64,000 bases of DNA from the IMG/VR virus record IMGVR_UViG_3300013741_000003. One strand, 5' to 3'. Below are positions 13,436 through 29,996 of the stretch, piece by piece; positions within the stretch are counted from its first letter, which is position 1; every line of letters begins with the position of its first letter. The stretch is from an uncultured virus (IMG/VR IMGVR_UViG_3300013741_000003) (Duplodnaviria; Heunggongvirae; Uroviricota; Caudoviricetes). Made by a program: the position numbers and the translations under genes. The notes under the pieces are model-generated. The model was not told where the DNA came from and did no database searches. It worked only from the letters and a program-made list of their open reading frames with translations.

Positions 13436-14800
13436 TTAGTTTGAATATGGATCAGCACTTGCCCAAGAACTATTATCTGTTGCTGATGTTTGAACTGGAC
13501 TTTCGTATACAGGCTCATGGCTAGGGCTTACTGTCTGGTTGAATACATTATTATCTTCAACAACGCTTGCTTGATGATTAATAACTTCTTTTTCCACCTC
13601 TACAGGAGCTACAAAATTTTCTTGCTCTACTTCCTTATCAGGAACATATAGATAACCTGAAAGATCATTTGCTTTTCCTACATTAGAACAAAAATCAAAA
13701 GAGCTATCCAATGTAAATCCTGCTCCAAGAGCGGAGCCTACCTGATTTGTATGCCAGTTACCAATAAAGTTATCACCATCTTGAACCATTTCAAGGCTTG
13801 TAGAACTACCATTTTCAGACACAAATGAAACATTCAGTTTACCTAATTCATCAGGAACAATAATGTTTTTCTCACCTGTTTGTGTTCTTAACTCACATGA
13901 ATTAGTTGCTGTATCAAACTTCAATACACCGATTTCATTAGTTTTATCTACGTCATCAAAAAGTTTGACAGTGTAACCCTCTGGATTATGACGTACTTCA
14001 CTCGAAGCTACATTTTCAAAACCAGAAATATTATGGATATTATCATCAATGATACGTTGATTAATATTATCACCTAAATCATTAAAGTATAAGAACCACG
14101 CAAGAGTAGAATGTGGTCTAAACATTAATGCCAACTCTGGATTATAAAAAGCTAGTAGGTCATTTAGTGGATCAGTGTCAAAATTATTCCTCTGACTAAC
14201 TACATTTTTTTGAGAAACTTTAGTAATAATCTTCTGTTTTTGCTGTTCTTTTTCTTTCAGAACTTTAACTTTGTTTGAAAGATTTACTTCTTCTTGTTGC
14301 ATTTTGAAGTAAAAATCTTGTACATTTTTTACCTGATAATCAGAAACATCTTCCAAGAAGAACATAAACGATGAATGTTTAACTTCAACTTTAAAAGATT
14401 TACCACTTTGAGAAAGAATAGATACTAATGTTTTAAAATCTTTATCTTTAATAATGAAAGCTGTTTCATCATTTACCAATACTTGATCACAAGCAATAAC
14501 AATAGTATTAGCTACAATAAAGCTATTATTGATACCGTTTTCTGTAAAATCATTAAACGCATTCTTATATTGTGTTTTATCTTTTTCGATATCTTTAAAG
14601 GTTTCTTTAAGTAAGTCTCTATTAAGATTAAAAGACATTACCTTAGCCATACAGCTATATTCTAAAGAACTCTTGCTTAGTTTTAATGGGATTGCCACAG
14701 GAATTTTTGAAAGCAATGTTTTTCCTTGCTCATCAATAACACTTAACTTACCTGCTTTATTCACTTTACCATTATGTTTAATTACTACGGTTAGAGTCAT
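13436..14800 (-). CDS. hypothetical protein
   Basis: 454-aa ORF with low-complexity C-terminus. Confidence 0.75.
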   Translation of the reverse strand: MTLTVVIKHNGKVNKAGKLSVIDEQGKTLLSKIPVAIPLKLSKSSLEYSCMAKVMSFNLNRDLLKETFKDIEKDKTQYKNAFNDFTENGINNSFIVANTIVIACDQVLVNDETAFIIKDKDFKTLVSILSQSGKSFKVEVKHSSFMFFLEDVSDYQVKNVQDFYFKMQQEEVNLSNKVKVLKEKEQQKQKIITKVSQKNVVSQRNNFDTDPLNDLLAFYNPELALMFRPHSTLAWFLYFNDLGDNINQRIIDDNIHNISGFENVASSEVRHNPEGYTVKLFDDVDKTNEIGVLKFDTATNSCELRTQTGEKNIIVPDELGKLNVSFVSENGSSTSLEMVQDGDNFIGNWHTNQVGSALGAGFTLDSSFDFCSNVGKANDLSGYLYVPDKEVEQENFVAPVEVEKEVINHQASVVEDNNVFNQTVSPSHEPVYESPVQTSATDNSSWASADPYSN

Positions 14801-14887
14801 TATTTTTACCTTTTTAGATTAATGTTGAGCTATTATACATATTGTTGTTATCTCTTGCAATCTATTTATTTACGTAAAAAAGAGAGC

Positions 14888-15127
14888 CTAAGCTCTCTCT
14901 GTTTTAATATTTCCACATTTATTTATTTGCTCAATTATTCTTTCTTGAGTTAATGGATTGCTTAGATCAAGCTTAACAATACCATCTTTATTAATTGTAT
15001 AAGTCCCTTGATTTTCTTTTAAAGCTTTAAACAGTCGTTGTTCATTATAACTTCTTGGGGAATCTTTTTTTGATAAAAACTTTTTTATTCGATGTAGAGT
15101 GATTTTCTTCATTTTAAAACCTCTCAT
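14888..15127 (-). CDS. small hypothetical protein ending in TAG
   Basis: ORF directly downstream of the RNA island; start likely MKKITL. Confidence 0.55.
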   Translation of the reverse strand: MRGFKMKKITLHRIKKFLSKKDSPRSYNEQRLFKALKENQGTYTINKDGIVKLDLSNPLTQERIIEQINKCGNIKTERA

Positions 15128-15136
15128 AGTTTGAGG

Positions 15137-15237
15137 TGGTGGTTGCCGCAGGATTTGAACCTGCCCTTAACAGCCTACACAATAGGGTATTGCTACCTGT
15201 TTTATCGCCTGTCATAGTGTCCAGCTATCCAACAACC
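15137..15237 (-). ncRNA. anticodon-less tRNA-like RNA with encoded CCA
   Basis: GGTTGTT/GGCAACC-A-CCA acceptor; GCAGG-TTCAAAT-CCTGC T-arm; ATAG/CTAT D-like arm; extended arm capped by GGTA-GCAA-TACC. Confidence 0.75.
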
Positions 15238-15346
15238 AATGGTCCGGGTTATAGTCATCCCCGGTTTCGCTTGTTCCAGACTAATGCCCCATGTTGGCAG
15301 GAGCTACACAAACATTTTTAAACATTTTAAAAAATCCTATTAGTTT

Positions 15347-15461
15347 ATAAAATTTTACGATTCGTCGTAGAGTGTGCTTTTCTTTGTAATCTTTTGTTCG
15401 CTTTTGTGATTACCAAATACTTGCCTCAGTCATTTACGATAGCGCGTTAACGCCAACTTAT
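15347..15461 (-). ncRNA. unknown structured RNA, copy 1
   Basis: homologous to 15500-15630 with compensatory stem changes. Confidence 0.65.
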
Positions 15462-15499
15462 TTTTATCTAACTATTAATTTATTTAAATATTCAAATTA

Positions 15500-15630
15500 G
15501 AGGAAGCTTCACGATTCGTCGCAAAATCCGTCAGGGCCAGTCCCTTTTCTCAGTCATTTTTTGTTCGCTTTATAATGACCTGATACTAAATAAACAAGAT
15601 TTTTTACACGATGGTATAACCAACTTCCTC
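15500..15630 (-). ncRNA. unknown structured RNA, copy 2
   Basis: GAGGAAG/CTTCCTC closing stem; GTCATT-[ATAAAGCGAACAAAA]-AATGAC hairpin; CGA-CGAA-TCG hairpin. Confidence 0.65.
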
Positions 15631-15648
15631 TTTTCTACTTCATTTTTA

Positions 15649-16236
15649 CCTTAAAGTCGTAGATGTTCCTTTAAGATATTTCAAGTTACAAGTGGTAGGG
15701 GCTAATTCTCCTACTTAACTGCCGTTTATGGAGACGCTTACGAGTTGCAAATTCGTTTTGCGGATAACAATATCAACAGCATCATGTCTGCTCAACCATA
15801 CCGTATTAGCTTACGGATTCACTTGGCTCTGAGAGCTTATATCACATATACCAGAAATAGTTACATATAATAAAGCTAACAGAAATCGGGAACAAGGAAC
15901 CACCCTATACTTCCCTAATAAATTTTTCAACCACGGCTTGAAGTGGGCCTTTATCTTGTGGCTATAGCTTATAGCATCTGGTGGTTAGCCATAGCTACGT
16001 TCTTCTCTTAGTTTTAAGCATTTGGAGATTGCTCGACGGCACTCGAATAAACACTCTAAACTAACTGTAACCATCTGACTAAGTTAACGGTGAAGGTTGT
16101 CACCTACTGGTTCAAGCTGCCAGTCAACATTCGCATTCCTTCTCGTCTTCAGCGAACTTATACCCGTCTGTCTTTTTGGAACTCAAACCAGACAGAAAAA
16201 TGAAGATATAACAGCATCAGTCTCACCTGTTATTCT
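15649..16236 (-). ncRNA. large ornate ncRNA candidate (~590 nt; ROOL-like in size and context, family unverified)
   Basis: no credible ORF, many hairpins, two 7-bp loop-loop complementarities, directly 3' of tRNA-Leu. Confidence 0.55.
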
Positions 16237-16244
16237 TTTGAGTT

Positions 16245-16329
16245 TGGTACTCCGGGTCGGACTCGAACCGACAAACCTTGCGGCGTTAGGACCTAAACCT
16301 AATGCGGTTACCAATTTCGCCACCGGAGC
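16245..16329 (-). tRNA. tRNA-Leu(TAG)
   Basis: full cloverleaf, TTAGG-TT-TAG-GT-CCTAA, long variable arm, ACCA end. Confidence 0.95.
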
Positions 16330-16384
16330 ATTGCGGAAAACACTGCCTATCTCTGATAGGGATGTATATTAGTCTTTTCCTATG

Positions 16385-16448
16385 ATTAGTTTATGTAGGG
16401 ACTTGAACCCCAGCGCTACTTAAAGCACTCCGTCACGCCCTAACCAAT
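16385..16448 (-). ncRNA. minimal or degenerate tRNA-like element
   Basis: TGGGG-TTCAAGT-CCCTA T-arm within ATTGGTT/AACTAAT stem; begins at predicted transcription start. Confidence 0.4.
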
Positions 16449-16454
16449 GAAAAC

Positions 16455-16483
16455 ATTATAGCTAAAACTTTTATGAAAAACAA
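16455..16483 (-). promoter_or_regulatory. sigma70-like promoter for the left half of the RNA island
   Basis: TTGTTT-N17-TATAAT. Confidence 0.65.
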
Positions 16484-16559
16484 CTCTTTTTTCTTTCTTT
16501 TTTTAATTATTATCATGAATTTAGGTGTTACAATACTTGTTATAGCTGGATATTTTTAT

Positions 16560-16889
16560 TTAATATATTTCTAATGGTTTTATTACTCTTGGATACATCA
16601 AAACAGTTATATTTTTCTCTATCGTTTTATTTATAAAATCTCTAACATCTTTATTTGATAGACTTAAAAGATGGACATAATTATCATACTTTTCTATTTT
16701 ATCGTCTTTTAATGTTATTATTTTCATATCATGATATGTATCTACATTATATCCAGTGATCATAAAATAAAACGTATCCTCTTTCTCATTAAAAAATGAA
16801 AAAGTAATAATTTCGCCATTCTTTTTATTTAATTCTTTTTTTACAATCTCTTTTTTACTTTCAAGCTCTAAAATATTTAAAATAGTCAT
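16560..16889 (-). CDS. hypothetical protein inside the RNA island
   Basis: 109-aa AT-rich ORF with AGGAG SD. Confidence 0.6.
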   Translation of the reverse strand: MTILNILELESKKEIVKKELNKKNGEIITFSFFNEKEDTFYFMITGYNVDTYHDMKIITLKDDKIEKYDNYVHLLSLSNKDVRDFINKTIEKNITVLMYPRVIKPLEIY

Positions 16890-16993
16890 ACACTCACTCT
16901 CCTTTTTTAGAATAAAACACTATTCTTATTAAAAAGTAAAATCTATTTTAATTTATAATGAAGGGAATTTTAAGTGAAATAAAGGGTAGAGGT

Positions 16994-17086
16994 GATTGTA
17001 AAAGCGTTGGATTCGAACCATTAATGCCTGATCAAGGGCAACACTCCCGTAGGTCTGGACCATCTTAACTTACAACTTTTACAATC
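16994..17086 (-). ncRNA. tRNA-like RNA with 11-bp terminal stem
   Basis: GATTGTAAAAG/CTTTTACAATC perfect stem, TGG-TTCGAAT-CCA T-loop, followed by ACCT. Confidence 0.55.
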
Positions 17087-17161
17087 TTTTTAGTGGGAGC
17101 TTCTGATCAGAAGCAGCTACGGGCATCCCACAAAACAACTGATTAACGTCTATGTATTTGT

Positions 17162-17193
17162 AAAATAAAACTCCTTTCCAATTAGAAAAGGAG
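17162..17193 (-). terminator. intrinsic terminator of large ncRNA
   Basis: CTCCTTT..AAAGGAG hairpin then TTTTATTTT. Confidence 0.7.
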
Positions 17194-17945
17194 CCGATAT
17201 TGCCTTCTACACCGGTTTGAAGACAACCTGCCTTTTCCTACTTCGCAATCCAGCCCTAATAGGCTAACAGGCTGGCGCTAAGCCTTCAGTCCGGCTAAGA
17301 CATCCTCTTTTCTTGTTATTCCATAGCGAGTAACCTTTCTATGGCAAGAGTGTCGATTTAAAGAAGCAAGACACTATACCTCCTTTTGAAAAGATGGGGA
17401 GTCTCACCCCAACTTTGTTATTGATTACGTCAAGCGCTATAGCAATCAACCTGCATTCAGATAATATTCGCTTATAACCTTTTATGCTACAGTTATAAGC
17501 TATACTCATTAATTTACACTTATAGTGAGTACCCTATAAGCGAGTGCTAGTTTAAAGAACAGCACTAATTCTTGAATAACTCCCGTCGAAACGACAGTAT
17601 CCCTATCATTTGCCCATAATGAATGATTATCTTTAAACAAGAATCCTTTTGGATCGAGCAAAGCGTACACATTCGGGCTATCAAGTTGGACGGCTGAGAA
17701 ACTTCACTTTGGAAAAGCTATCCCGCAGATATTTCTAACGCAAGGACCACAACTTAAATTTTGTGGCGTTCGAGGAAGTTTGAGGCTTTAAATATCTCAA
17801 ACACTCAGCGATTTCTCTCGTTTTTATAAAAATGCCCCTGATCGCAACATCAGGTATTTTTGATTAGTAAATCCAATTACTTTGGAAGAAATCTGATTTA
17901 CCTACATGCCAGATTCTAAAACTGGCCCCATCTAGACATTAGCTT
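17194..17945 (-). ncRNA. large ornate ncRNA candidate (~750 nt; GOLLD-like in size and context, family unverified)
   Basis: ORF-free and hairpin-dense, GTGAGA-loop hairpin, two TTTAAA-core long-range pairings; 5' boundary approximate. Confidence 0.55.
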
Positions 17946-18082
17946 TAAGTTTCCCGTTCCCGTCTATTTTATTTAGAAACGTAACTTTTTGTTTGCTGTT
18001 CCACCAGCTACCAGAACATTTAACTGGCAATTAGGTTGGAGTCATCGCTCCTTAGTCAGAAACTGAACACGCGAACGCATTC

Positions 18083-18175
18083 TTGTATCAGCATCAGGAT
18101 TTGAACCTGACTGGTGTAAGGTTTACGCTCCTGATTACTCGGAGAACGCCTCACTGGTTCCAACAACTGCTGATA
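18083..18175 (-). ncRNA. anticodon-less tRNA-like RNA
   Basis: ATCAGCA/TGCTGAT-A-CAA acceptor; TCAGG-TTCAAAT-CCTGA T-arm; extended GTGAGG/CCTTAC + CTCC/GGAG arm. Confidence 0.65.
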
Positions 18176-18189
18176 TTTTTTAATTTAAA

Positions 18190-18399
18190 ACTATTCAAGC
18201 TTTGTTAACATATAGGTAGTTTAGTCATCGTATCACGCAATAATACTTATAATCTTCTCAGCAGAGGCGAATCCGCGTCAATGAAGGGCTACCAGTTAAC
18301 TCTATCTCACGTATTTCGACAGAACATGCTGCTCTGCTAATCGCTTGACTCTAATCAGTTTACGAGACTGATGTTAAAACGAGGGTGCTCTTGAATAGC
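18190..18399 (-). ncRNA. unknown ~210-nt structured RNA
   Basis: GCTATTCAAG/CTTGAATAGT closing stem; nested TTAACAT/ATGTTAA, AGCAGAG/CTCTGCT and ATCAGT/ACTGAT helices. Confidence 0.55.
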
Positions 18400-18447
18400 T
18401 TTTTAATACCTTACTTCTTTTTGATAATAGTATTAGCTACTAATATC

Positions 18448-18593
18448 TGGTGTCGTTTCAGGAATCGAACCTGAGACTTGAAGAACTACTATCCGCGCTA
18501 TAACACTCAGCCAACTCTCCTTTCGGGACAGTGCAGGAATTAAACCTACGTTTTCGGACTACGCCTTCTGTTTTACCACTAAACTAATACGAC
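18448..18593 (-). ncRNA. double-tRNA: tRNA body whose anticodon loop is replaced by a circularly permuted second tRNA body
   Basis: outer D, anticodon stem, T and ACCA intact; the insert has T-arm, loop-closed acceptor and D-arm in permuted order. Confidence 0.8.
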
Positions 18594-18797
18594 ATTGTTT
18601 TGAGAGCTTATGATTATTCCTCTCTCGCCTTTAAACAAAACACCCACGAAACGCAGTATGCCTTATCCTAATCACTCGCCCTACGGCATCGCAGAGCGGT
18701 CAGGTTTTCTATTTTATTAAAGGAGGCTTCAAAGTTCTGCTCTTTACAGACAATGTAGTGGAATTTCATTACTACTCATTGCCGCCTCAAGAACTAC

Positions 18798-18826
18798 ATC
18801 TTACCAAAACCCAAACTCATAATCAA
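18798..18826 (-). promoter_or_regulatory. internal promoter of the RNA island
   Basis: TTGATT-N17-TAAGAT with extended TG; GTAGTTCTTGA immediately downstream, also seen after the TG-n-TATATT at ~19102. Confidence 0.55.
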
Positions 18827-18855
18827 CTACTTTTTTACTATTTTCTTATTTTTTA

Positions 18856-19048
18856 GGATGGCTGGCACTGATCTCCAGCTTGTCTATAACACCTGCTAGT
18901 TAACACCGGAGTCTCACCGGGGCGAAGATTTCACAGGAGCTTTATTGGGACAGTGCTGGATTACAACGTGCTTACTTAACCGATTACATCCAGCGATATC
19001 TACTTCCCATCAGGTCTTACACTTTCCCGTCAGTCCGGGACTTCATCC
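18856..19048 (-). ncRNA. manA-like structured RNA (193 nt)
   Basis: GGATG/CATCC closing stem; 5' CCCG-GACTGA-CGGG loop complementary to 3' GCTGG-AGATCAGTG-CCAGC loop; CCGG-TGAGACT-CCGG hairpin; family call from recall. Confidence 0.55.
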
Positions 19049-19172
19049 ACTTAATAATAAAAAGCTAGAGTTTTAACCAGTCTTCTTTGCTTCAAGAACT
19101 ACAATATACCAACTTCACTGCTTAAACCCCGGAAGTCACCCTAGATGTACCCCGGAAGTTAAATACATAATT

Positions 19173-19257
19173 TGGTGCTCCAAGAGGGACTTGAACCCTC
19201 ACACCTTTCGGTAACAGATTTTGAGTCTGCCGCGTCTACCGATTCCACCATCAGAGC
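19173..19257 (-). tRNA. tRNA-Leu(CAA)
   Basis: full cloverleaf, GCAGA-CT-CAA-AA-TCTGT, long variable arm, ACCA end. Confidence 0.95.
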
Positions 19258-19261
19258 AATA

Positions 19262-19411
19262 TGGCAGGAGTAGAGGGATCGAACCTCACTTGATAAATAA
19301 CATTATTGAGAGCGACTCAACATTGTTCTTTATTCATAGACCAAAGGATACCTACCTTCCACATTAACTTCACCAGCGCTAGCTAAGAAAATGTGTGCCT
19401 ATGCTTCTCCT
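19262..19411 (-). ncRNA. 150-nt anticodon-less tRNA-like RNA with encoded CCA
   Basis: AGGAGAA/TACTCCT-G-CCA acceptor; GAGG-TTCGATC-CCTC T-arm; two large inserted helical domains. Confidence 0.7.
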
Positions 19412-19416
19412 ATTCT

Positions 19417-19490
19417 TGGTGTCAATGGAGGGAATCGAACCCACATCCAGAGTTTTAGAGACTCCTGCTCTACCGTTAAGCTACAAAGAC
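19417..19490 (-). tRNA. amber suppressor tRNA (anticodon CTA)
   Basis: cloverleaf with GGAGT-CT-CTA-AA-ACTCT, normal D-arm, TTCGATT loop and ACCA; two T-T mismatches in acceptor, one in T-stem. Confidence 0.8.
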
Positions 19491-19503
19491 ACGTTTTACT
19501 TGT

Positions 19504-19545
19504 CACTACAGAAATGATTCTAGCAAAACACTATCTGTAGTGCAA
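19504..19545 (-). promoter_or_regulatory. promoter of the RNA island with overlapping inverted repeat
   Basis: TTGCAC-N17-TAGAAT; CACTACAGA/TCTGTAGTG at 19504-19512 and 19534-19542. Confidence 0.65.
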
Positions 19546-19553
19546 GAACTTTT

Positions 19554-19964
19554 TCAATTATCCTTTTTATATACAGCAATTGTATTTTCTAAACTATAAT
19601 TTTCTTTATATTTTTTAGATAAATACTCCATAAAACCTTTATTAATTTCTCTATTGTCGTTACGGTTTTCAACGTTATACCAACAATTTTCTAAATTATT
19701 TTCGAAAAAAATCCATTCTGTTTCTTTTATCATTAATCCCAATAACATTTTATTTAAAGAACTTTCTGCTTTTTCCATAGTTACTGTACACAACATTGGA
19801 TCAGCAATATATAGGGTTTCTTCTTCTGAAGCTTTGAAAGCATTTAACTTGTCAATATTTAAAGAAAAATCATCAATGACAAAACCTTTTTTTATTTTTG
19901 ATAATAAAGTTGTTTTCCCTGATCCGGGTAAACCAACATAGAAAACAACTTTAATATTTCTCAT
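19554..19964 (-). CDS. small P-loop kinase (AAA_33/PNK kinase-like)
   Basis: GLPGSGKT Walker A, VIDD, lid-like NVENR. Confidence 0.7.
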   Translation of the reverse strand: MRNIKVVFYVGLPGSGKTTLLSKIKKGFVIDDFSLNIDKLNAFKASEEETLYIADPMLCTVTMEKAESSLNKMLLGLMIKETEWIFFENNLENCWYNVENRNDNREINKGFMEYLSKKYKENYSLENTIAVYKKDN

Positions 19965-19976
19965 ATTAAACCCTTT

Positions 19977-20354
19977 TTATTCTGGTATAATTTCTTTTAA
20001 ACCATCAAACAGATTTTGAGTATTCAACTTTTTAATCATATAATCAGTGGAGTTACCATAATATTCATAATTAGTTTTTTCACTGATATCCCATAATGAT
20101 TTCTGCTCAAGCTTTTTAAATTGTAAAAATGTTAAGTTTGGACAAACCATTTCAAGTAATTCAATAAATACCATTGGATCTTCTGGCTCTGGTTCGGCTG
20201 AAACTGAATGATGATGATCTGCATTCCAACAAGAACCTCCTTCTTGACCACCTACGACCCATTTTTTGGAAATTGGAAAGATTTTCTTTTTAAATTCTTT
20301 TTCTATAGCTTCTTCAAACTGTTTTACATTTTTAAACTCATGAATACTAATCAT
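19977..20354 (-). CDS. phage hypothetical protein
   Basis: W..GGQEGGSCW and EYYGN motifs. Confidence 0.7.
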   Translation of the reverse strand: MISIHEFKNVKQFEEAIEKEFKKKIFPISKKWVVGGQEGGSCWNADHHHSVSAEPEPEDPMVFIELLEMVCPNLTFLQFKKLEQKSLWDISEKTNYEYYGNSTDYMIKKLNTQNLFDGLKEIIPE

Positions 20355-24289: not shown

Positions 24290-24655
24290 TTAATAATCTC
24301 TGCGATAAGGGGCAATAACTAAAGAAATATCCATTTCTTTAAATTCTTCTTCATGTTGCATTAAATCTTCAATAACATTGTCGTCACTGGAATGTAGATA
24401 GATAGTTTTCAGCAGAGGATATCCTTCTCGTCCACTGTATAAAACCTCGTAAACGAATTCAGAACCAAAAAGAAAGTTATCATCCATATAATAATCAAGA
24501 TATAATACTTCAATTTCTTTTGAATGCTCTGATACATACTGAATAGCTTGGCGAATATTTTTCAACCACAAAACATTTTCTGCTTCTGTTTTTGGCAAAA
24601 AATGATGAGGATTACGTGTATCATCAATCCAGATATTTTTATTATCCACGGCAAT
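24290..24655 (-). CDS. cyclic-phosphate-processing receiver-like protein, copy 2
   Basis: IWIDDTRNP...LYLDYYM..GSE...IYLHS; start uncertain. Confidence 0.65.
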   Translation of the reverse strand: MAVDNKNIWIDDTRNPHHFLPKTEAENVLWLKNIRQAIQYVSEHSKEIEVLYLDYYMDDNFLFGSEFVYEVLYSGREGYPLLKTIYLHSSDDNVIEDLMQHEEEFKEMDISLVIAPYRRDY

Positions 24656-25007
24656 TTCCTTTTTTATTACGATAAGGCGCAACTTCGAGACTAATCCCTT
24701 GATTTTCTAAATTTGGAGCTAATTCCATTAGTTCATCAATAGCATCATCATCGTTTGAATGAAGATAAATAGATTTTAGGTTAGGAAACATTTTCTTTCC
24801 ACCGCGTTTTGCATAGAAAACAAATTCAGAACCAAAAATAACAGGACTATCCATGTAATAATCTAGATACAAAACTTCAATTTCTTCTGATTTCTTTAGA
24901 AATAAATTCAATGCTTCACGAATTGCTTTAACCCAAATAACACCTTCAGATTCTTTTTCTGAAAGATAATCTTTAGGGTTGCGTTCATCATCGATCCAAA
25001 CTTTCAT
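24642..25007 (-). CDS. cyclic-phosphate-processing receiver-like protein, copy 1
   Basis: VWIDDERNP...LYLDYYM..GSE...IYLHSN. Confidence 0.7.
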   Translation of the reverse strand: MKVWIDDERNPKDYLSEKESEGVIWVKAIREALNLFLKKSEEIEVLYLDYYMDSPVIFGSEFVFYAKRGGKKMFPNLKSIYLHSNDDDAIDELMELAPNLENQGISLEVAPYRNKKGNCRG

Positions 25008-27161: not shown

Positions 27162-28286
27162 TTACATAAACAATATATAATCATAACCCTCTTTGTAATA
27201 CTTTTCCTTTTCTGGTGTTAGATTTCCAAAATATTTTTCATAAAATTTTGCCTGATTTATTATTGGATTATCTTCTTCATTAACATCTTCTTCATCAACA
27301 TCTTTTTTATTCATCATATAATCTATAGTCATATAAATCGGAGTTCCTAAAACATAGTTACCTGCCATTTTTCTCACTGGATCTTCTACAGTAATATGAG
27401 CAAATGCATTTCCTATTTTAAATAACTCTTTTAGTTTATCATAATTTCCATTCTCATAATAAGTTTTTACTCTCTGATTTATTGAATTAACGACTTCATC
27501 ATTTTGCTTGTAAACTTTTTTTATTTCTGGACTATTATAATCATAATTCGTTTTCTTAATAACATCATTTATATTTTTTATATAACTCTTATCTATAAAA
27601 AAAGTTTGTCCATCAAATCCATTTTCAATTAATATTTGCTTTAAATTATCATACATCTTTTTGTCACTTTTATAATAAAAAGTATCATTTAAAATAAAAT
27701 TACTGTACACACTTTTCATTAATCTAACATCATTCAAATCTGCTTTATGTTTTGTATTTTTCTTATAAACTTCTTGGATTTTTTTATTAAACTCTGGATA
27801 CTTATTATTATCGAATACTTCTTTTTCAGAGTGATTTCTGGTTAATAATTCTAGTTCACTATAATATGCTATAGGATTATTTATCTTCATATTAACTGAC
27901 ATTATTCTATTTAAACTAACTCCAACCCCTTTATCAAACATAAATGCCTTTTGAAAAGCCGGATTATCACCCCCTTTATAACCATAAATATATTCAAAAG
28001 TTAACAGATCTCTTTTAAAATCAGCATCAGAATACGGAACAGCAGATATCATTTTTTTAAATGTGCTGTAATCATTTAATTTCGCATCATTTGCTACTTT
28101 ATAATCTACTATAAATGTTGTATGTTTTATATTGGCAGCAGTGATAGCTACATCATATGCAGCAATAGATCCAACAATCATAGCAAATCCCATAGCTATT
28201 GTTTTCAGTATACTTTTTTTCTTAAGTGTCTTATTCAAACTTCTAGATTTGGTTTCAAACTCTACTTTATTTTTTGTTTTTAACAT
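27162..28286 (-). CDS. membrane-anchored paralog family A member
   Basis: N-terminal half nearly identical to 25932-27026. Confidence 0.8.
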   Translation of the reverse strand: MLKTKNKVEFETKSRSLNKTLKKKSILKTIAMGFAMIVGSIAAYDVAITAANIKHTTFIVDYKVANDAKLNDYSTFKKMISAVPYSDADFKRDLLTFEYIYGYKGGDNPAFQKAFMFDKGVGVSLNRIMSVNMKINNPIAYYSELELLTRNHSEKEVFDNNKYPEFNKKIQEVYKKNTKHKADLNDVRLMKSVYSNFILNDTFYYKSDKKMYDNLKQILIENGFDGQTFFIDKSYIKNINDVIKKTNYDYNSPEIKKVYKQNDEVVNSINQRVKTYYENGNYDKLKELFKIGNAFAHITVEDPVRKMAGNYVLGTPIYMTIDYMMNKKDVDEEDVNEEDNPIINQAKFYEKYFGNLTPEKEKYYKEGYDYILFM

Positions 28287-28368
28287 ATTATCTCACCCAC
28301 TTATATTATTATATCAGTATAATATATGATTTATTTTTATACAATTATTTTAAAGCAGATTCACACTT

Positions 28369-29295
28369 TTACTTTATTCCGCTAATCTTAATAATATTTT
28401 TATATTGATCTTGCTCAACAAGAATAGTGTTAAATGATGTATCTATAATAATTTCGGCATCATCCTTTTTTGCCCTACCATTAAATACACATACCGTCCA
28501 AGCATCTGTTGTTATTCTACCTATTTTTTCATATCCTTCTGTAATCATTTTATTATTACTAGATTCATAATCATATTCTTTTTCATCCTCAAATAAATTA
28601 CCTATGATAATCTCTTCACCTTTTTTCCAAACAATCGGTGAACTATTACCTACATTAAAACGAGCAACATTCTTTTTAGCCCAACGTTTCATTTCGTTAT
28701 AATCACCAAGACTTGTCCCAAGCTGAGGTCCGTCAAAATTCATAGGGAGATTAATGCTTCTCATAAAGTTTGAAATACCTATTTTTCCATTAACTTTTAT
28801 TTTAACCTTAAACTCATTATCTAAATTAATACATTTATGATTATCTTTGTATACAACAAACTCTTTTTTCTCTAGGTCAAGAGCATAAAAATATCTTGAA
28901 GAGCATTCCCAGCAAAAATGTTCTTTATGAGAAGACTTCACTTGATTTTCATAAATAAAATCCATAATTTCATTTGAAATACCCATTATTAAACTATAGA
29001 ATATACTTATAATAATCATTTCGAAAAAATCTTCTTTAAAAAAAGAGGGATCTATCAACTCTTTTTTAATAGCATCATTTAAAGTAATATTTTGTTTTTC
29101 AAAAATAAGGTTATTATTTAATGTATTATCTACTTTATAATTAAGACCCTTAGCTATTTCTTTTATTTCATTTTTTATATTTGGATAATCATTAAATATA
29201 GCAGCAATGAATTGATGTTTACCAATGTATTCTTTTAAATCATGTTTTTCTATTAAAAATGTTAATCTATTTATAATTTCTTGCTTAATATTCAT
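28369..29295 (-). CDS. paralog family D member (CxxC)
   Basis: CWECS, VNGKIGISN.MRS and DAWT shared with 36587-37516. Confidence 0.75.
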   Translation of the reverse strand: MNIKQEIINRLTFLIEKHDLKEYIGKHQFIAAIFNDYPNIKNEIKEIAKGLNYKVDNTLNNNLIFEKQNITLNDAIKKELIDPSFFKEDFFEMIIISIFYSLIMGISNEIMDFIYENQVKSSHKEHFCWECSSRYFYALDLEKKEFVVYKDNHKCINLDNEFKVKIKVNGKIGISNFMRSINLPMNFDGPQLGTSLGDYNEMKRWAKKNVARFNVGNSSPIVWKKGEEIIIGNLFEDEKEYDYESSNNKMITEGYEKIGRITTDAWTVCVFNGRAKKDDAEIIIDTSFNTILVEQDQYKNIIKISGIK

Positions 29296-29306
29296 TTTAT
29301 ATCCTT

Positions 29307-29678
29307 TTATTTAAAGAAAAATGTATCTACTTGGAATAATAATTTAGCTTTATCTCTTTTAAAAATCAGTTGAGATAATCCTTGCCTTACATTTGAAGAA
29401 TCAATTTCATAAGTAGATAAAACAGCTCCAAGTTTTCCAAGCTGAATGCGCCAATAAGGATTGAACACCCATTTATGGTAATGTTCTACACTCTCAAATC
29501 CGAAAATATAGTGATAATCTGATAAATCATCAAAACGCAATTTAGGATCAAGATGAGGTAATGGATGAAGAGAGGTATCTTCAAAATCTTTTGTTACACG
29601 TTTCCATATGCTTTTTTCGGCATTCCTATAAATACCATCACCATTCGGCATTTCTAAGCGTAGAATTTGCATTAGCAT
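29307..29678 (-). CDS. phage hypothetical protein
   Basis: RLE...G.GIY, HPLP..D, FGFES. Confidence 0.65.
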   Translation of the reverse strand: MLMQILRLEMPNGDGIYRNAEKSIWKRVTKDFEDTSLHPLPHLDPKLRFDDLSDYHYIFGFESVEHYHKWVFNPYWRIQLGKLGAVLSTYEIDSSNVRQGLSQLIFKRDKAKLLFQVDTFFFK

Positions 29679-29687
29679 ACTATATCC

Positions 29688-29996
29688 TCAGACCCCATGA
29701 ATACTGATGATTCTATCTTTTGATACAGGCTCTAAACAAAATACCTCAAAACTAATAACAGAATGTAAAGTTAATCCAGAACCATTTACTGTTATCAACT
29801 GGATTTCTTCATCTTCCTCAAACAGTTCTCCAAGCCAGTTAGATAAACCTTCCTCTGCTTCTTCTATACTTGGAAAAAAATAAATTGCTGGTTGAGGCTC
29901 TCCTAATGCCATAGAATTTTTACCAATCAAAGGTTTAAAACCTTCTACAGCTATTTTGTCAGCATTCTTTTTACTGGTAATGTGATATAAGTTCAT
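29688..29996 (-). CDS. possible ADP-ribosyltransferase-fold protein
   Basis: LYHIT....I..EGFKP...AIYF. Confidence 0.45.
   Translation of the reverse strand: MNLYHITSKKNADKIAVEGFKPLIGKNSMALGEPQPAIYFFPSIEEAEEGLSNWLGELFEEDEEIQLITVNGSGLTLHSVISFEVFCLEPVSKDRIISIHGV

What the first reader, a model, noticed from the sequence alone, without database searches (positions are those of the whole stretch)
15347..15630. Tandem pair of an unknown ncRNA with covarying stems and an invariant AAAGCGAACAAAA loop
Seen: two diverged copies share the blocks AAGTTGG, ATCGT, AGTAT, AAAGCGAACAAAA, AGAAAAG and CGACGAATCGT. Stems change compensatorily: GTAATC/GATTAC vs GTCATT/AATGAC around the conserved loop, TGGCG/CGCTA vs TGGT/ACCA, and TACGA/TCGTA vs TGCGA/TCGTG. 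The layout (closing stem, small 5' hairpin, long middle arm, 3' hairpin abutting the closing stem) is loosely cloverleaf-like. Inference: the displayed 13-mer is a protein-binding or antisense seed, e.g. a sponge or antitoxin-like decoy.
Basis: partly seen in the sequence, partly recalled or inferred. Interest (0 to 1): 0.8.

Follow-up and report, generated by a model that had tools for sequence, protein, structure and literature searches.

The report
Twin small RNAs in phage tRNA-island
Two diverged, neighbouring copies of a folded small RNA of unknown job sit among the tRNA-like genes of a giant bacterial virus; the pair is real and matches no described RNA family, but it was found in only one virus lineage.

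Summary
On the minus strand, copy A (15630..15500, 131 nt) and copy B (15462..15347, 116 nt) share collinear invariant blocks. The central hairpin (9 bp plus a conserved bulged G) keeps pairing through 4 double changes. Six G.U pairs fit only the minus strand.

No Rfam 15 family matches, including tRNA, YrlA and c4. ARAGORN calls no tRNA there. A covariance model finds exactly two copies in the window and in the 341,648-bp relative G001. Pattern scans added only two more contigs of the same lineage.

The pair lies in a 4.4-kb ORF-poor island of tRNAs and aberrant tRNA-like genes of a ~30% GC jumbo phage. This placement parallels T4 RNAC/RNAD, whose roles are unknown.

The blocks AGUA and GAA flanking the hairpin fit a sarcin-ricin (bulged-G) module. 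Each copy shows CGAA twice in loops.

The relative encodes a Ro60/TROVE protein, but 55 kb away, and a different conserved RNA lies directly upstream of TROVE genes. A Y-RNA role is therefore possible but not favoured. No antisense target was found in the phage.

Best reading: paralogous stable small RNAs acting as protein-binding scaffolds or decoys. Function is untested.

The parts
15500..15630 (-). Copy A of the RNA (131 nt): closing stem P1 15630-15622/15508-15500, small hairpin P2, long middle arm, 3' hairpin P4
   Evidence: CM R1 87.7 bits over 15498-15590
15347..15462 (-). Copy B of the RNA (116 nt): weak A/U-rich closing stem 15459-15455/15354-15350, P2 15455-15450/15445-15440, middle arm, P4
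   Evidence: CM R1 106.2 bits over 15344-15424; the two substitutions in the 3' strand of P1 in G001 (T15352C, T15349A) both improve pairing
15550..15583 (-). Copy A hairpin P3: 5' strand 15583-15574 (bulged G 15579), loop 15573-15559 holding the invariant 13-mer 15571-15559, 3' strand 15558-15550
15383..15417 (-). Copy B hairpin P3: 5' strand 15417-15408 (bulged G 15413), loop 15407-15392 holding the 13-mer 15404-15392, 3' strand 15391-15383
15584..15587 (-). Copy A AGUA block directly 5' of P3; with GAA at 15549-15547 directly 3' of P3 it gives the AGUA/GAA signature of a sarcin-ricin (bulged-G) module
   Evidence: sequence; signature as quoted in PMC5737476 (passage); inference, not probed
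15418..15421 (-). Copy B AGUA block directly 5' of P3; partner GAA at 15382-15380
   Evidence: sequence; inference
15510..15523 (-). Copy A P4: UGCGA / CGAA loop / UCGUG; the invariant 11-mer CGACGAAUCGU is 15521-15511
15356..15369 (-). Copy B P4: UACGA / CGAA loop / UCGUA; the 11-mer is 15367-15357
   Evidence: T15357C in L016/L020 breaks one pair
15608..15612 (-). Copy A 5' AUCGU(G) block, able to pair with UGCGA (15523-15519) as an alternative to P4
   Evidence: energies within 1.7 kcal/mol of the MFE
15436..15440 (-). Copy B 5' AUCGU(A) block, able to pair with UACGA (15369-15365) as an alternative to P4
   Evidence: favoured in the L020 variant (-16.1 against -14.1 kcal/mol)
15463..15499 (-). 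A/T-rich 37-nt spacer between the copies
   Evidence: invariant in the 4 lineage genomes except one inserted G at 15462
15137..19550 (-). Context: ORF-poor island holding the pair, 3 canonical tRNAs (16245-16329, 19173-19257, 19417-19490) and several T-arm-bearing tRNA-like modules

Best explanation
The two elements are paralogous genes for a structured small RNA of about 115-130 nt, read from the minus strand as part of a tRNA/tRNA-like RNA island of a jumbo phage.

Each copy folds into:
- a terminal 5'/3' stem;
- a small 5' hairpin;
- a long middle arm, whose 9-bp helix (bulged G) sits on an AGUA/GAA sarcin-ricin-type module and displays an invariant 13-nt A-rich loop (AAAGCGAACAAAA);
- a 3' block (CGACGAAUCGU) that forms either a small CGAA-loop hairpin abutting the terminal stem or a long-range helix with the 5' AUCGU.

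I infer that the RNAs are cut out of a polycistronic tRNA-type precursor and accumulate as stable RNAs, as T4 RNAC/RNAD do. I also infer that they work in trans as protein-binding scaffolds or decoys, with the invariant loop, the S-turn and the CGAA loop as contact surfaces.

Shown: sequence conservation, covarying helices, strand, copy number, absence from Rfam. Inferred: transcription, processing, stability and protein binding. The partner is unknown; the phage's own Ro60-like TROVE protein is one candidate.

Rough odds: real structured RNA genes 0.85; protein-binding mode of action 0.4-0.5.
For: Structure:
- P3 has 4 of 9 pairs with changes on both sides, 98% of cells paired and the bulged G conserved. 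Slid controls pair 31-45%. RNAalifold gives the same helices independently.
- The cloverleaf-like four-way fold lies within 0.5-0.9 kcal/mol of the MFE in the window's own two copies, A_win and B_win.

Strand:
- Six G.U pairs in the window's two copies, and C15582T giving U.G in L016/L020, would be A.C mismatches on the plus strand.
- All tRNAs of the island are on the minus strand.

Constraint:
- Blocks of 13/13, 11/11, 7/7, 7/7 and 5/5 nt are invariant although the stems have diverged.

Non-coding status:
- No ORF of 30 aa or more overlaps the pair.
- The island stays ORF-poor under TAG=Q and under code 4.

Boundary:
- The only hypervariable stretch between the window and G001 (18 differences, 15319-15352) starts right after copy B.

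Precedent:
- T4 carries two tandem stable RNAs of 139 and 119 nt inside its tRNA cluster. Their roles are unknown (PMC3014915 and PMC9697503, passages).

Against antisense action:
- No complementary site was found in the window or in G001 beyond control level.
Against:
- Single-sequence folding energies are no better than shuffles.
- Only four genomes of one lineage (96.8-98.4% identical) carry the pair. Structure support therefore comes almost wholly from one paralogue comparison.
- Within that lineage the elements are not more conserved than the flanking genes.
- P1 of copy B is only 5 A/U-rich pairs. P2 of copy A has a competing fold.
- P4 has no double change and is weakened in L016/L020.
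- No promoter or terminator was found that frames the pair.
- No partner protein is identified, and the flanking proteins have no informative families.
Confidence: 0.45

Rival explanations
1. Y RNA-like partners of the phage's Ro60/TROVE protein. The terminal stem and the CGAA-bearing loops would bind the TROVE ring and tether it to a host nuclease such as PNPase, as shown in vitro for Yrl1/Yrl2 of Thermus phage phiLo.
For: - G001, 98% identical to the window, encodes a TROVE protein (Pfam 26.8 bits against a cut-off of 23). Its best solved relative is phiRo60 (9KOP/9L5Y, E 6e-17).
- G001 has no YrlA (RF02553) hit over the cut-off (best 23.7 against 69 bits), so its Ro60 partner RNA is unassigned.
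- Bacterial Y RNAs carry GNCGAAN0-1G (PMC4201824, section 6). The phiLo Yrls were defined by a CGAA motif, and mutating it lowers affinity 3-4 fold (PMC12135203, passages).
- Each copy here has CGAA twice in invariant blocks (GACGAAUCG and AAAGCGAACAAAA), a 5'/3' stem and large internal loops.
- Y RNAs typically come in pairs.
Against: - The pair lies about 55 kb from the TROVE gene. Known Y RNAs are almost all within 4 kb of it and on the same strand (PMC4201824, section 5).
- The GNCGAA match sits near the 3' end, not the 5' end, and has two bases before the next G rather than 0-1.
- CGAA is only a 4-mer. Neither GNCGAA nor CGAA-loop hairpins are enriched near 73-74 phage TROVE genes.
- The model R1 and nhmmer find nothing in 79 TROVE loci, 1.43 Mb.
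- A different conserved element (AGNTACTTC) lies within 1.5 kb upstream of TROVE in 26 of 76 loci. G001 has one copy and Bacillus phage G has five tandem units. This is the more likely cognate RNA.
Confidence: 0.12
2. Trans-acting antisense regulators or sponges. The 13-nt loop would be a seed that kisses a complementary U-rich site (UUUUGUUCGCUUU) in a host or phage RNA, like the loops of P1 c4 RNA.
For: - The 13-mer is invariant and displayed in a 15-16-nt hairpin loop in both copies.
- Two copies share one seed.
- The c4 RNA of P1 is a precedent for a processed, cloverleaf-like phage antisense RNA (recalled, not from a call).
Against: - No site with 0-1 mismatch exists in G001 other than the antisense strand of the genes themselves. 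At 2 mismatches there are 38 sites against 47 for the reversed control pattern.
- In the window a G.U-tolerant pattern gives 5 matches against 2.9 expected; 15 of 100 shuffles do as well.
- The best duplex energy elsewhere is -13 kcal/mol and is not an outlier.
- Rfam's c4 family does not match.
- The host genome is unknown, so host targets were not examined.
Confidence: 0.13
3. Cis-acting parts of the polycistronic precursor: processing, stability or anti-termination signals for the neighbouring tRNA-like genes, rather than free-standing RNAs.
For: - The pair sits between tRNA-Leu(tag) and a tRNA-like gene on the same strand, with no terminator or convincing promoter of its own.
- Near-isoenergetic alternative helices (5' AUCGUR or 3' AUCGUR with YRCGA) would suit a switch.
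Against: - A terminal 5'/3' stem closing each unit, two complete units in tandem and a displayed invariant loop look like discrete RNAs.
- No other tRNA or tRNA-like gene in the island, or in the 38-tRNA relative, is accompanied by such an element.
Confidence: 0.12
4. Decayed tRNA genes (relics) with no present function.
For: - The topology is cloverleaf-like.
- CGAAUC in the 3' hairpin equals the 3' part of a canonical T-loop/stem (UUCGAAUCC; consensus recalled, though T-arm repeats of this type are listed).
- The setting is among tRNAs and aberrant tRNA-like genes.
Against: - The tRNA model and ARAGORN fail at the pair, the former at E up to 10 and the latter with introns allowed at an 80% threshold.
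- Double compensatory changes and long invariant blocks between paralogues show continuing selection on a non-tRNA structure.
Confidence: 0.06
5. DNA-level element, for example hairpins of an origin, packaging or recombination site.
For: Watson-Crick compensations are strand-symmetric, and the region is A/T-rich with repeats.
Against: - G.U pairs occur on one strand only.
- There is no array of iterons.
- The elements share orientation with an RNA-gene island.
- No replication or recombination gene lies next to them.
Confidence: 0.03

Closest known systems
Bacteriophage T4 RNAC (species 1, 139 nt) and RNAD (species 2, 119 nt)
   Same: Two tandem small RNAs of 119-139 nt inside a phage tRNA gene cluster, on the tRNA strand, and not tRNAs themselves (NC_000866 70908-71171, next to tRNA-Arg). 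Their function is still unknown (PMC3014915 and PMC9697503, passages).
   Different: There is no detectable sequence similarity. T4 RNAC carries a canonical T-arm at its 3' end, and the pair here has none. Expression of the T4 RNAs is proven; here it is not.
Bacterial and phage Y RNAs (YrlA/YrlB, Rfam RF02553; Yrl1/Yrl2 of Thermus phage phiLo), partners of Ro60/TROVE
   Same: Size of 80-130 nt, a 5'/3' stem with large internal loops, occurrence in pairs, a CGAA/GNCGAA motif, a tRNA-like flavour, and a TROVE gene in the same phage.
   Different: - No match to RF02553.
- No T or D arms.
- The motif is at the 3' side with different spacing.
- The pair lies 55 kb from the TROVE gene.
- Another conserved RNA occupies the canonical upstream position.
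tRNA (Rfam RF00005)
   Same: Four-way, cloverleaf-like topology in which the 3' hairpin abuts the terminal stem. The genomic setting is among tRNAs.
   Different: No T-loop, no D-loop and no 7-nt anticodon loop; the middle arm ends in a 15-16-nt loop. The Rfam tRNA model and ARAGORN both fail.
P1/P7 c4 antisense RNA (Rfam C4 family)
   Same: A small, processed, multi-hairpin phage RNA that acts through exposed loops (recalled, not from a call).
   Different: No Rfam match and no complementary target sites in the phage.

Membership tests
tRNA (RF00005) | Match to the tRNA covariance model or an ARAGORN call (acceptor, D, anticodon and T arms with conserved loops) | tested here: not met
   No tRNA hit on 15347-15630 at E<=10. 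ARAGORN with introns allowed and an 80% threshold, and in mitochondrial mode, gives no call there.
YrlA / Y RNA (RF02553) | Match to the YrlA covariance model (permuted T and D arms) | tested here: not met
   No YrlA hit in 14800-20000 or in 15320-15660 at E<=10. In G001 the best hit is 23.7 bits against a gathering score of 69, and none lies at the pair.
YrlA / Y RNA (RF02553) | Encoded within about 4 kb of, and on the same strand as, the Ro60/TROVE gene (PMC4201824, section 5) | tested here: not met
   The strand is the same, but the pair is at G001 84567-84813 and the TROVE ORF at 28032-29711, about 55 kb apart.
YrlA / Y RNA (RF02553) | GNCGAAN0-1G motif near the 5' end (PMC4201824, section 6); CGAA motif in a bulge or hairpin (PMC12135203) | tested here: inconclusive
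   GACGAA is present in both copies, but near the 3' end and followed by UC before the next G. CGAA is also in the 13-mer loop. The motif is too short to be decisive, and it shows no enrichment near TROVE genes.
YrlA / Y RNA (RF02553) | Binding to Ro60/Rsr | not testable with these tools
   Needs EMSA or RIP. The complex predictor takes no RNA.
T4 RNAC/RNAD-type stable RNAs | Tandem small non-tRNA RNAs within a phage tRNA cluster | tested here: met
   (position and sizes 131/116 nt against 139/119 nt).
T4 RNAC/RNAD-type stable RNAs | Sequence or structure homology to T4 rnaC/rnaD | tested here: not met
   A MAFFT alignment shows no shared blocks. T4 rnaC has a T-arm and the pair here has none.
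T4 RNAC/RNAD-type stable RNAs | Accumulation as discrete stable RNA in infection | not testable with these tools
   Only two copies, of 116-131 nt, identical in 81 of 148 alignment columns. The flanking proteins have no toxin or defence family apart from a weak P-loop match.
Sarcin-ricin (bulged-G) module | AGUA opposite GAA next to a Watson-Crick pair | tested here: met
   Met at the sequence level: AGUA lies directly 5' and GAA directly 3' of P3 in both copies. The signature is as quoted in PMC5737476. The three-dimensional fold was not tested.

The most novel reading that the evidence does not exclude
The pair would be tRNA-derived cloverleaf scaffolds that a jumbo phage uses as decoys. They would present an invariant CGAA-containing loop and a sarcin-ricin-type S-turn to capture an RNA-binding protein. 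The captured protein could be the phage's own Ro60-like TROVE ring (a second, unlinked class of Y-like RNA) or a host nuclease that targets tRNA or rRNA. Together with the neighbouring tRNA-like genes that have over-long anticodon arms, they would form a dedicated 'RNA decoy island'.
Probability: 0.15. Interest if true: 0.8.

Novelty: new variant of a known kind. Interest (0 to 1): 0.45.

Why it matters
Small stable RNAs embedded in phage tRNA clusters have been known since T4 RNAC/RNAD, and their roles remain unexplained. This is a second, unrelated example, with clean paralogue covariation, a recognisable protein-docking module and an invariant displayed loop. It gives concrete mutations to test.

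It lies in a 4.4-kb RNA-only island of a largely uncharacterised jumbo phage that also carries suppressor-type tRNAs, aberrant tRNA-like genes and, elsewhere, a Ro60-like protein. The locus is therefore a good entry point to how large phages use non-coding RNA against or alongside host RNA metabolism.

As it stands, it is a lineage-restricted candidate RNA family without expression data.

Tried and rejected
Searches for homologues:
- Exact two-block pattern scans were run on IMG/VR and on JGI metagenomes.
- The only true hits were G001 and two contigs of the same lineage (L016, L020). All other loci were chance matches on inspection and under the model R1 (26 loci, best 22.7 bits, no structure).
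- The flanking 454-aa protein finds only G001 in IMG/VR.
- Two large window proteins (503 and 486 aa) find nothing among 50,697 phage records.
- blastn of 15100-16400 against those phage records hits only tRNA-Leu.

Possible third copy at 17981-17999 (ACAGCAAACAAAA): R1 does not support it.

Y-RNA link:
- R1 on 79 TROVE loci gave 0 matches at E<=10.
- nhmmer gave nothing below E 7.
- There was no GNCGAA or CGAA-hairpin enrichment.
- R1 on the Bacillus phage G locus scored 10.5 bits at best.
- A k-mer look at TROVE 5' leaders was not conclusive, and the start codons were partly mis-set.

Other ideas rejected:
- Similarity to T4 rnaC/rnaD: none.
- Self-cleaving ribozyme cores (hammerhead and others) and a 5S-like reading were considered by eye and dropped. 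Rfam gives nothing.
- Pairing between copy B's 5' AAUGACUGA and copy A's P3 strand: not kept in L016/L020.
- A pseudoknot between the loop and the U-rich 5' region exists in copy A only, so it is not conserved.

Neighbouring proteins:
- Pfam, PHROGs, NCBIfam, PADLOC and the ESM Atlas gave no RNA-binding or nuclease lead next to the pair.
- The search of earlier findings by place and by sequence returned nothing.

Not done:
- No structure prediction, complex prediction or genome-contig scan was run.
- Supplements of PMC4201824 (covariance models, tables S1 and S2) and the figures of PMC12135203 were not seen. They may define Y-RNA features more sharply than the text used here.

Full report
**What is there**

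The finding reads correctly only on the minus strand.
- Copy A runs 15630..15500 (131 nt) and copy B 15462..15347 (116 nt). A 37-nt A/T-rich spacer separates them.
- Both hold, in the same order, AAGTTGG, ATCGT, AGTAT, AAAGCGAACAAAA, AGAAAAG and CGACGAATCGT (81 of 148 alignment columns identical).
- The 13-mer occurs exactly twice in the 64-kb window. The 11-mer occurs twice against 0.16 expected.
- With copy B as an nhmmer query, copy A is the only other hit in the window (E 0.0041; the reverse search gives E 0.21).
- No ORF of 30 aa or more overlaps the pair.

**Structure**

The central hairpin P3 is the well-supported helix.
- It has nine pairs interrupted by a conserved bulged G.
- Four pairs are changed on both sides between the copies, and 98% of cells are paired on a six-row alignment. 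Slid registers pair 31-45%.
- RNAalifold predicts the same helix without being told.

The other helices are weaker.
- P2 (UGGU/ACCA against UGGCGU/GCGCUA) has one double change and two G.U pairs.
- The 5' block AUCGUR carries the same R as the 3' block in each copy (G in A, A in B). An alternative long-range helix AUCGUR/YRCGA is therefore equally possible.
- Constrained folds put the two conformations within about 2 kcal/mol of each other.
- The lineage variant T15357C breaks a P4 pair but leaves the long-range helix intact.
- P1 is a solid 9-bp stem in copy A and only 5 A/U-rich pairs in copy B. Both substitutions in its 3' strand in G001 (T15352C, T15349A) improve pairing.

Other points on structure:
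- Single-sequence energies are not better than shuffles (z -0.70 and -0.28).
- Six G.U pairs in the window's copies, plus C15582T giving U.G in L016/L020, fit only the minus strand. This is also the strand of all tRNAs nearby.
- The invariant AGUA immediately 5' and GAA immediately 3' of P3 reproduce the GAA-AGUA signature of the sarcin-ricin (bulged-G) motif, a common docking site for proteins and RNAs (PMC5737476, passage).

**Is it a known family?**

No.
- Rfam 15 at gathering thresholds finds only three tRNAs in the window.
- At E<=10 nothing meaningful falls on the pair, whether 5.2 kb or only 341 nt is searched. That library includes tRNA, YrlA, c4, 5S and the small ribozymes.
- ARAGORN makes no call there, even with introns allowed and a relaxed threshold.

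**Distribution**

- The window is a ~30% GC phage-like genome. Its nearest held record, G001, is a 341,648-bp IMG/VR virus, 98% identical over the locus.
- A covariance model of the 3' two-thirds (R1) scores the two copies at 106 and 88 bits, with the next best at 19 bits in the window. In the whole of G001 it finds two copies at 105 and 88 bits, then 17 bits.
- Four two-block pattern scans added only two more contigs of the same lineage, L016 and L020 (96.8% and 98.4% identical). The scans were three of IMG/VR and one of the metagenome collection.
- Every other hit was a chance match.
- The family is so far confined to one phage lineage. Within that lineage the elements are no more conserved than their surroundings. 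The one hypervariable stretch between the window and G001 begins right after copy B (18 differences at 15319-15352).

**Context**

- The pair lies in a 4.4-kb stretch (about 15137-19550) that is ORF-poor under table 11, under TAG=Q and under code 4.
- On the minus strand that stretch carries tRNA-Leu(tag), tRNA-Leu(caa), a CTA-anticodon suppressor-type tRNA, and at least seven further T-arm motifs that standard tools do not call as tRNAs.
- With introns allowed, ARAGORN calls a UUA-anticodon tRNA with a 72-nt insert at 18449-18594. At a relaxed threshold it calls a tRNA-like gene with a 28-nt insert at 15137-15237, directly downstream of copy B.
- The placement parallels phage T4, whose tRNA cluster ends with the tandem stable RNAs rnaD (119 nt) and rnaC (139 nt). 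There is no sequence similarity. The T4 RNAs' roles are still unknown (PMC3014915 and PMC9697503, passages).

**The Ro60 lead**

Evidence that raised it:
- G001 encodes a TROVE-domain protein. Its closest solved relative is the Ro60 homologue of Thermus phage phiLo (E 6e-17). The family is large (3395 proteins at E<=1e-5).
- Ro60 proteins bind Y RNAs of 80-130 nt that usually come in pairs.
- Bacterial Y RNAs carry GNCGAAN0-1G (PMC4201824, section 6).
- The phiLo Yrl RNAs were picked by a CGAA motif whose mutation lowers binding 3-4 fold (PMC12135203, passages).
- The pair shows CGAA twice per copy inside its invariant blocks. G001 has no YrlA above threshold.

Evidence against it:
- The pair is about 55 kb from the TROVE gene.
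- The motif is on the 3' side and has the wrong spacing.
- Neither GNCGAA nor CGAA-loop hairpins are enriched near 73-74 phage TROVE genes.
- R1 and nhmmer find nothing in 79 TROVE loci.
- A different element occupies the canonical upstream position. The motif AGNTACTTC occurs within 1.5 kb upstream, on the same strand, in 26 of 76 loci (33 hits in 114 kb against 92 in about 1.3 Mb elsewhere). Bacillus phage G has five tandem units, and G001 has one copy.
- I therefore rate the Y-RNA reading at about 0.12.

**Antisense reading**

- The complement of the 13-mer has no 0-1-mismatch site in G001 other than the genes' own opposite strand. At two mismatches it is no commoner than a reversed control.
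- In the window, a G.U-tolerant pattern and a duplex-energy scan give nothing above background.
- Host targets cannot be examined because the host is unknown.

**Verdict**

These are real, undescribed paralogous structured RNA genes. They are best compared with the unexplained stable RNAs of phage tRNA clusters.

I commit to protein-binding scaffold or decoy as the most likely mode of action. The reasons are the displayed invariant loop, the S-turn module, the CGAA loop and the lack of an antisense target.

Noticed in passing
window 15137-19550 (minus strand): A 4.4-kb ORF-poor RNA island. It holds 3 canonical tRNAs plus at least seven extra T-arm motifs (GGTTCRAnTCC at about 15150, 16397, 17020, 18096, 18460, 18535 and 19274) that Rfam and default ARAGORN do not call as tRNAs. 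Several look like tRNA bodies with 28-75-nt inserts in the anticodon arm.
   Followed up: partly
window 18449-18594 (-) and 19417-19490 (-): Two suppressor-type tRNAs. One has anticodon CTA (ARAGORN labels it tRNA-Pyl; Rfam tRNA 59 bits). The other is a candidate with anticodon TTA and a 72-nt insert, called only with introns allowed. Table 11 still gives long ORFs over most of the window, so recoding was not shown. Bacillus phage G also has a tRNA-other (tta) near its TROVE gene.
   Followed up: partly
G001:C1:28032-29711 (-), outside the window; L045 9712-10064: The 98%-identical relative encodes a Ro60/TROVE protein (552-559 aa), with a 350-nt non-coding leader. The leader holds CAGTTACTTCATA, a hairpin CCAUACGAAAUGG and, next to the ribosome-binding site, ACGAACAUAAAAGG. 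The last resembles the pair's loop GCGAACAAAA, which may be chance.
   Followed up: partly
L135 3195-3760 (Bacillus phage G, NC_023719.1 about 406671-407236); 26 of 76 IMG/VR TROVE loci: A conserved, apparently undescribed RNA element upstream of phage TROVE genes. The units begin TGAWGCGG..AACAGYTACTTC and end ..ACTGTT..ATCTCAA. Phage G has five in tandem. The core AGNTACTTC is 4-9 fold enriched within 1.5 kb upstream on the same strand. It is a likely Y-RNA-like family for this TROVE clade, and Rfam YrlA does not match at gathering score in the six loci scanned.
   Followed up: partly
L047, L048, L080 (IMG/VR loci): In 3 of 6 scanned TROVE loci the TROVE gene follows, on the same strand, tRNA arrays. 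L047 also has a tmRNA and L080 a ROOL RNA of 284 bits.
   Followed up: no
window 24290-24682 (-) and 24642-25007 (-): Two adjacent small proteins with the cREC_REC domain (PF20274, 'cyclic-phosphate processing receiver'; E 1.7e-8 and 3.4e-9). By its Pfam description the domain concerns cyclic-phosphate processing; its link to RNA-repair systems is recalled, not from a call. The two proteins lie 5 kb from the RNA island.
   Followed up: no
window 19554-19964 (-): A 136-aa P-loop protein bordering the RNA island. It has weak matches to AriA of the PARIS defence system (PADLOC E 7e-6, 23.8 bits) and to AAA/dNK kinases. This may be no more than Walker-A similarity.
   Followed up: no
window 19118/19126; window 17382-17582; window 16245-16329: Indels and variation inside the island between lineage members. 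G001 has a 1740-bp insertion at 19118/19126. L016 and L020 lack about 200 bp at 17382-17582. tRNA-Leu(tag) differs at 12 positions between window/G001 and L016/L020.
   Followed up: no
window 15631-16244 (-): About 600 nt without ORFs or Rfam hits between tRNA-Leu(tag) and copy A. It may be another unknown RNA.
   Followed up: no
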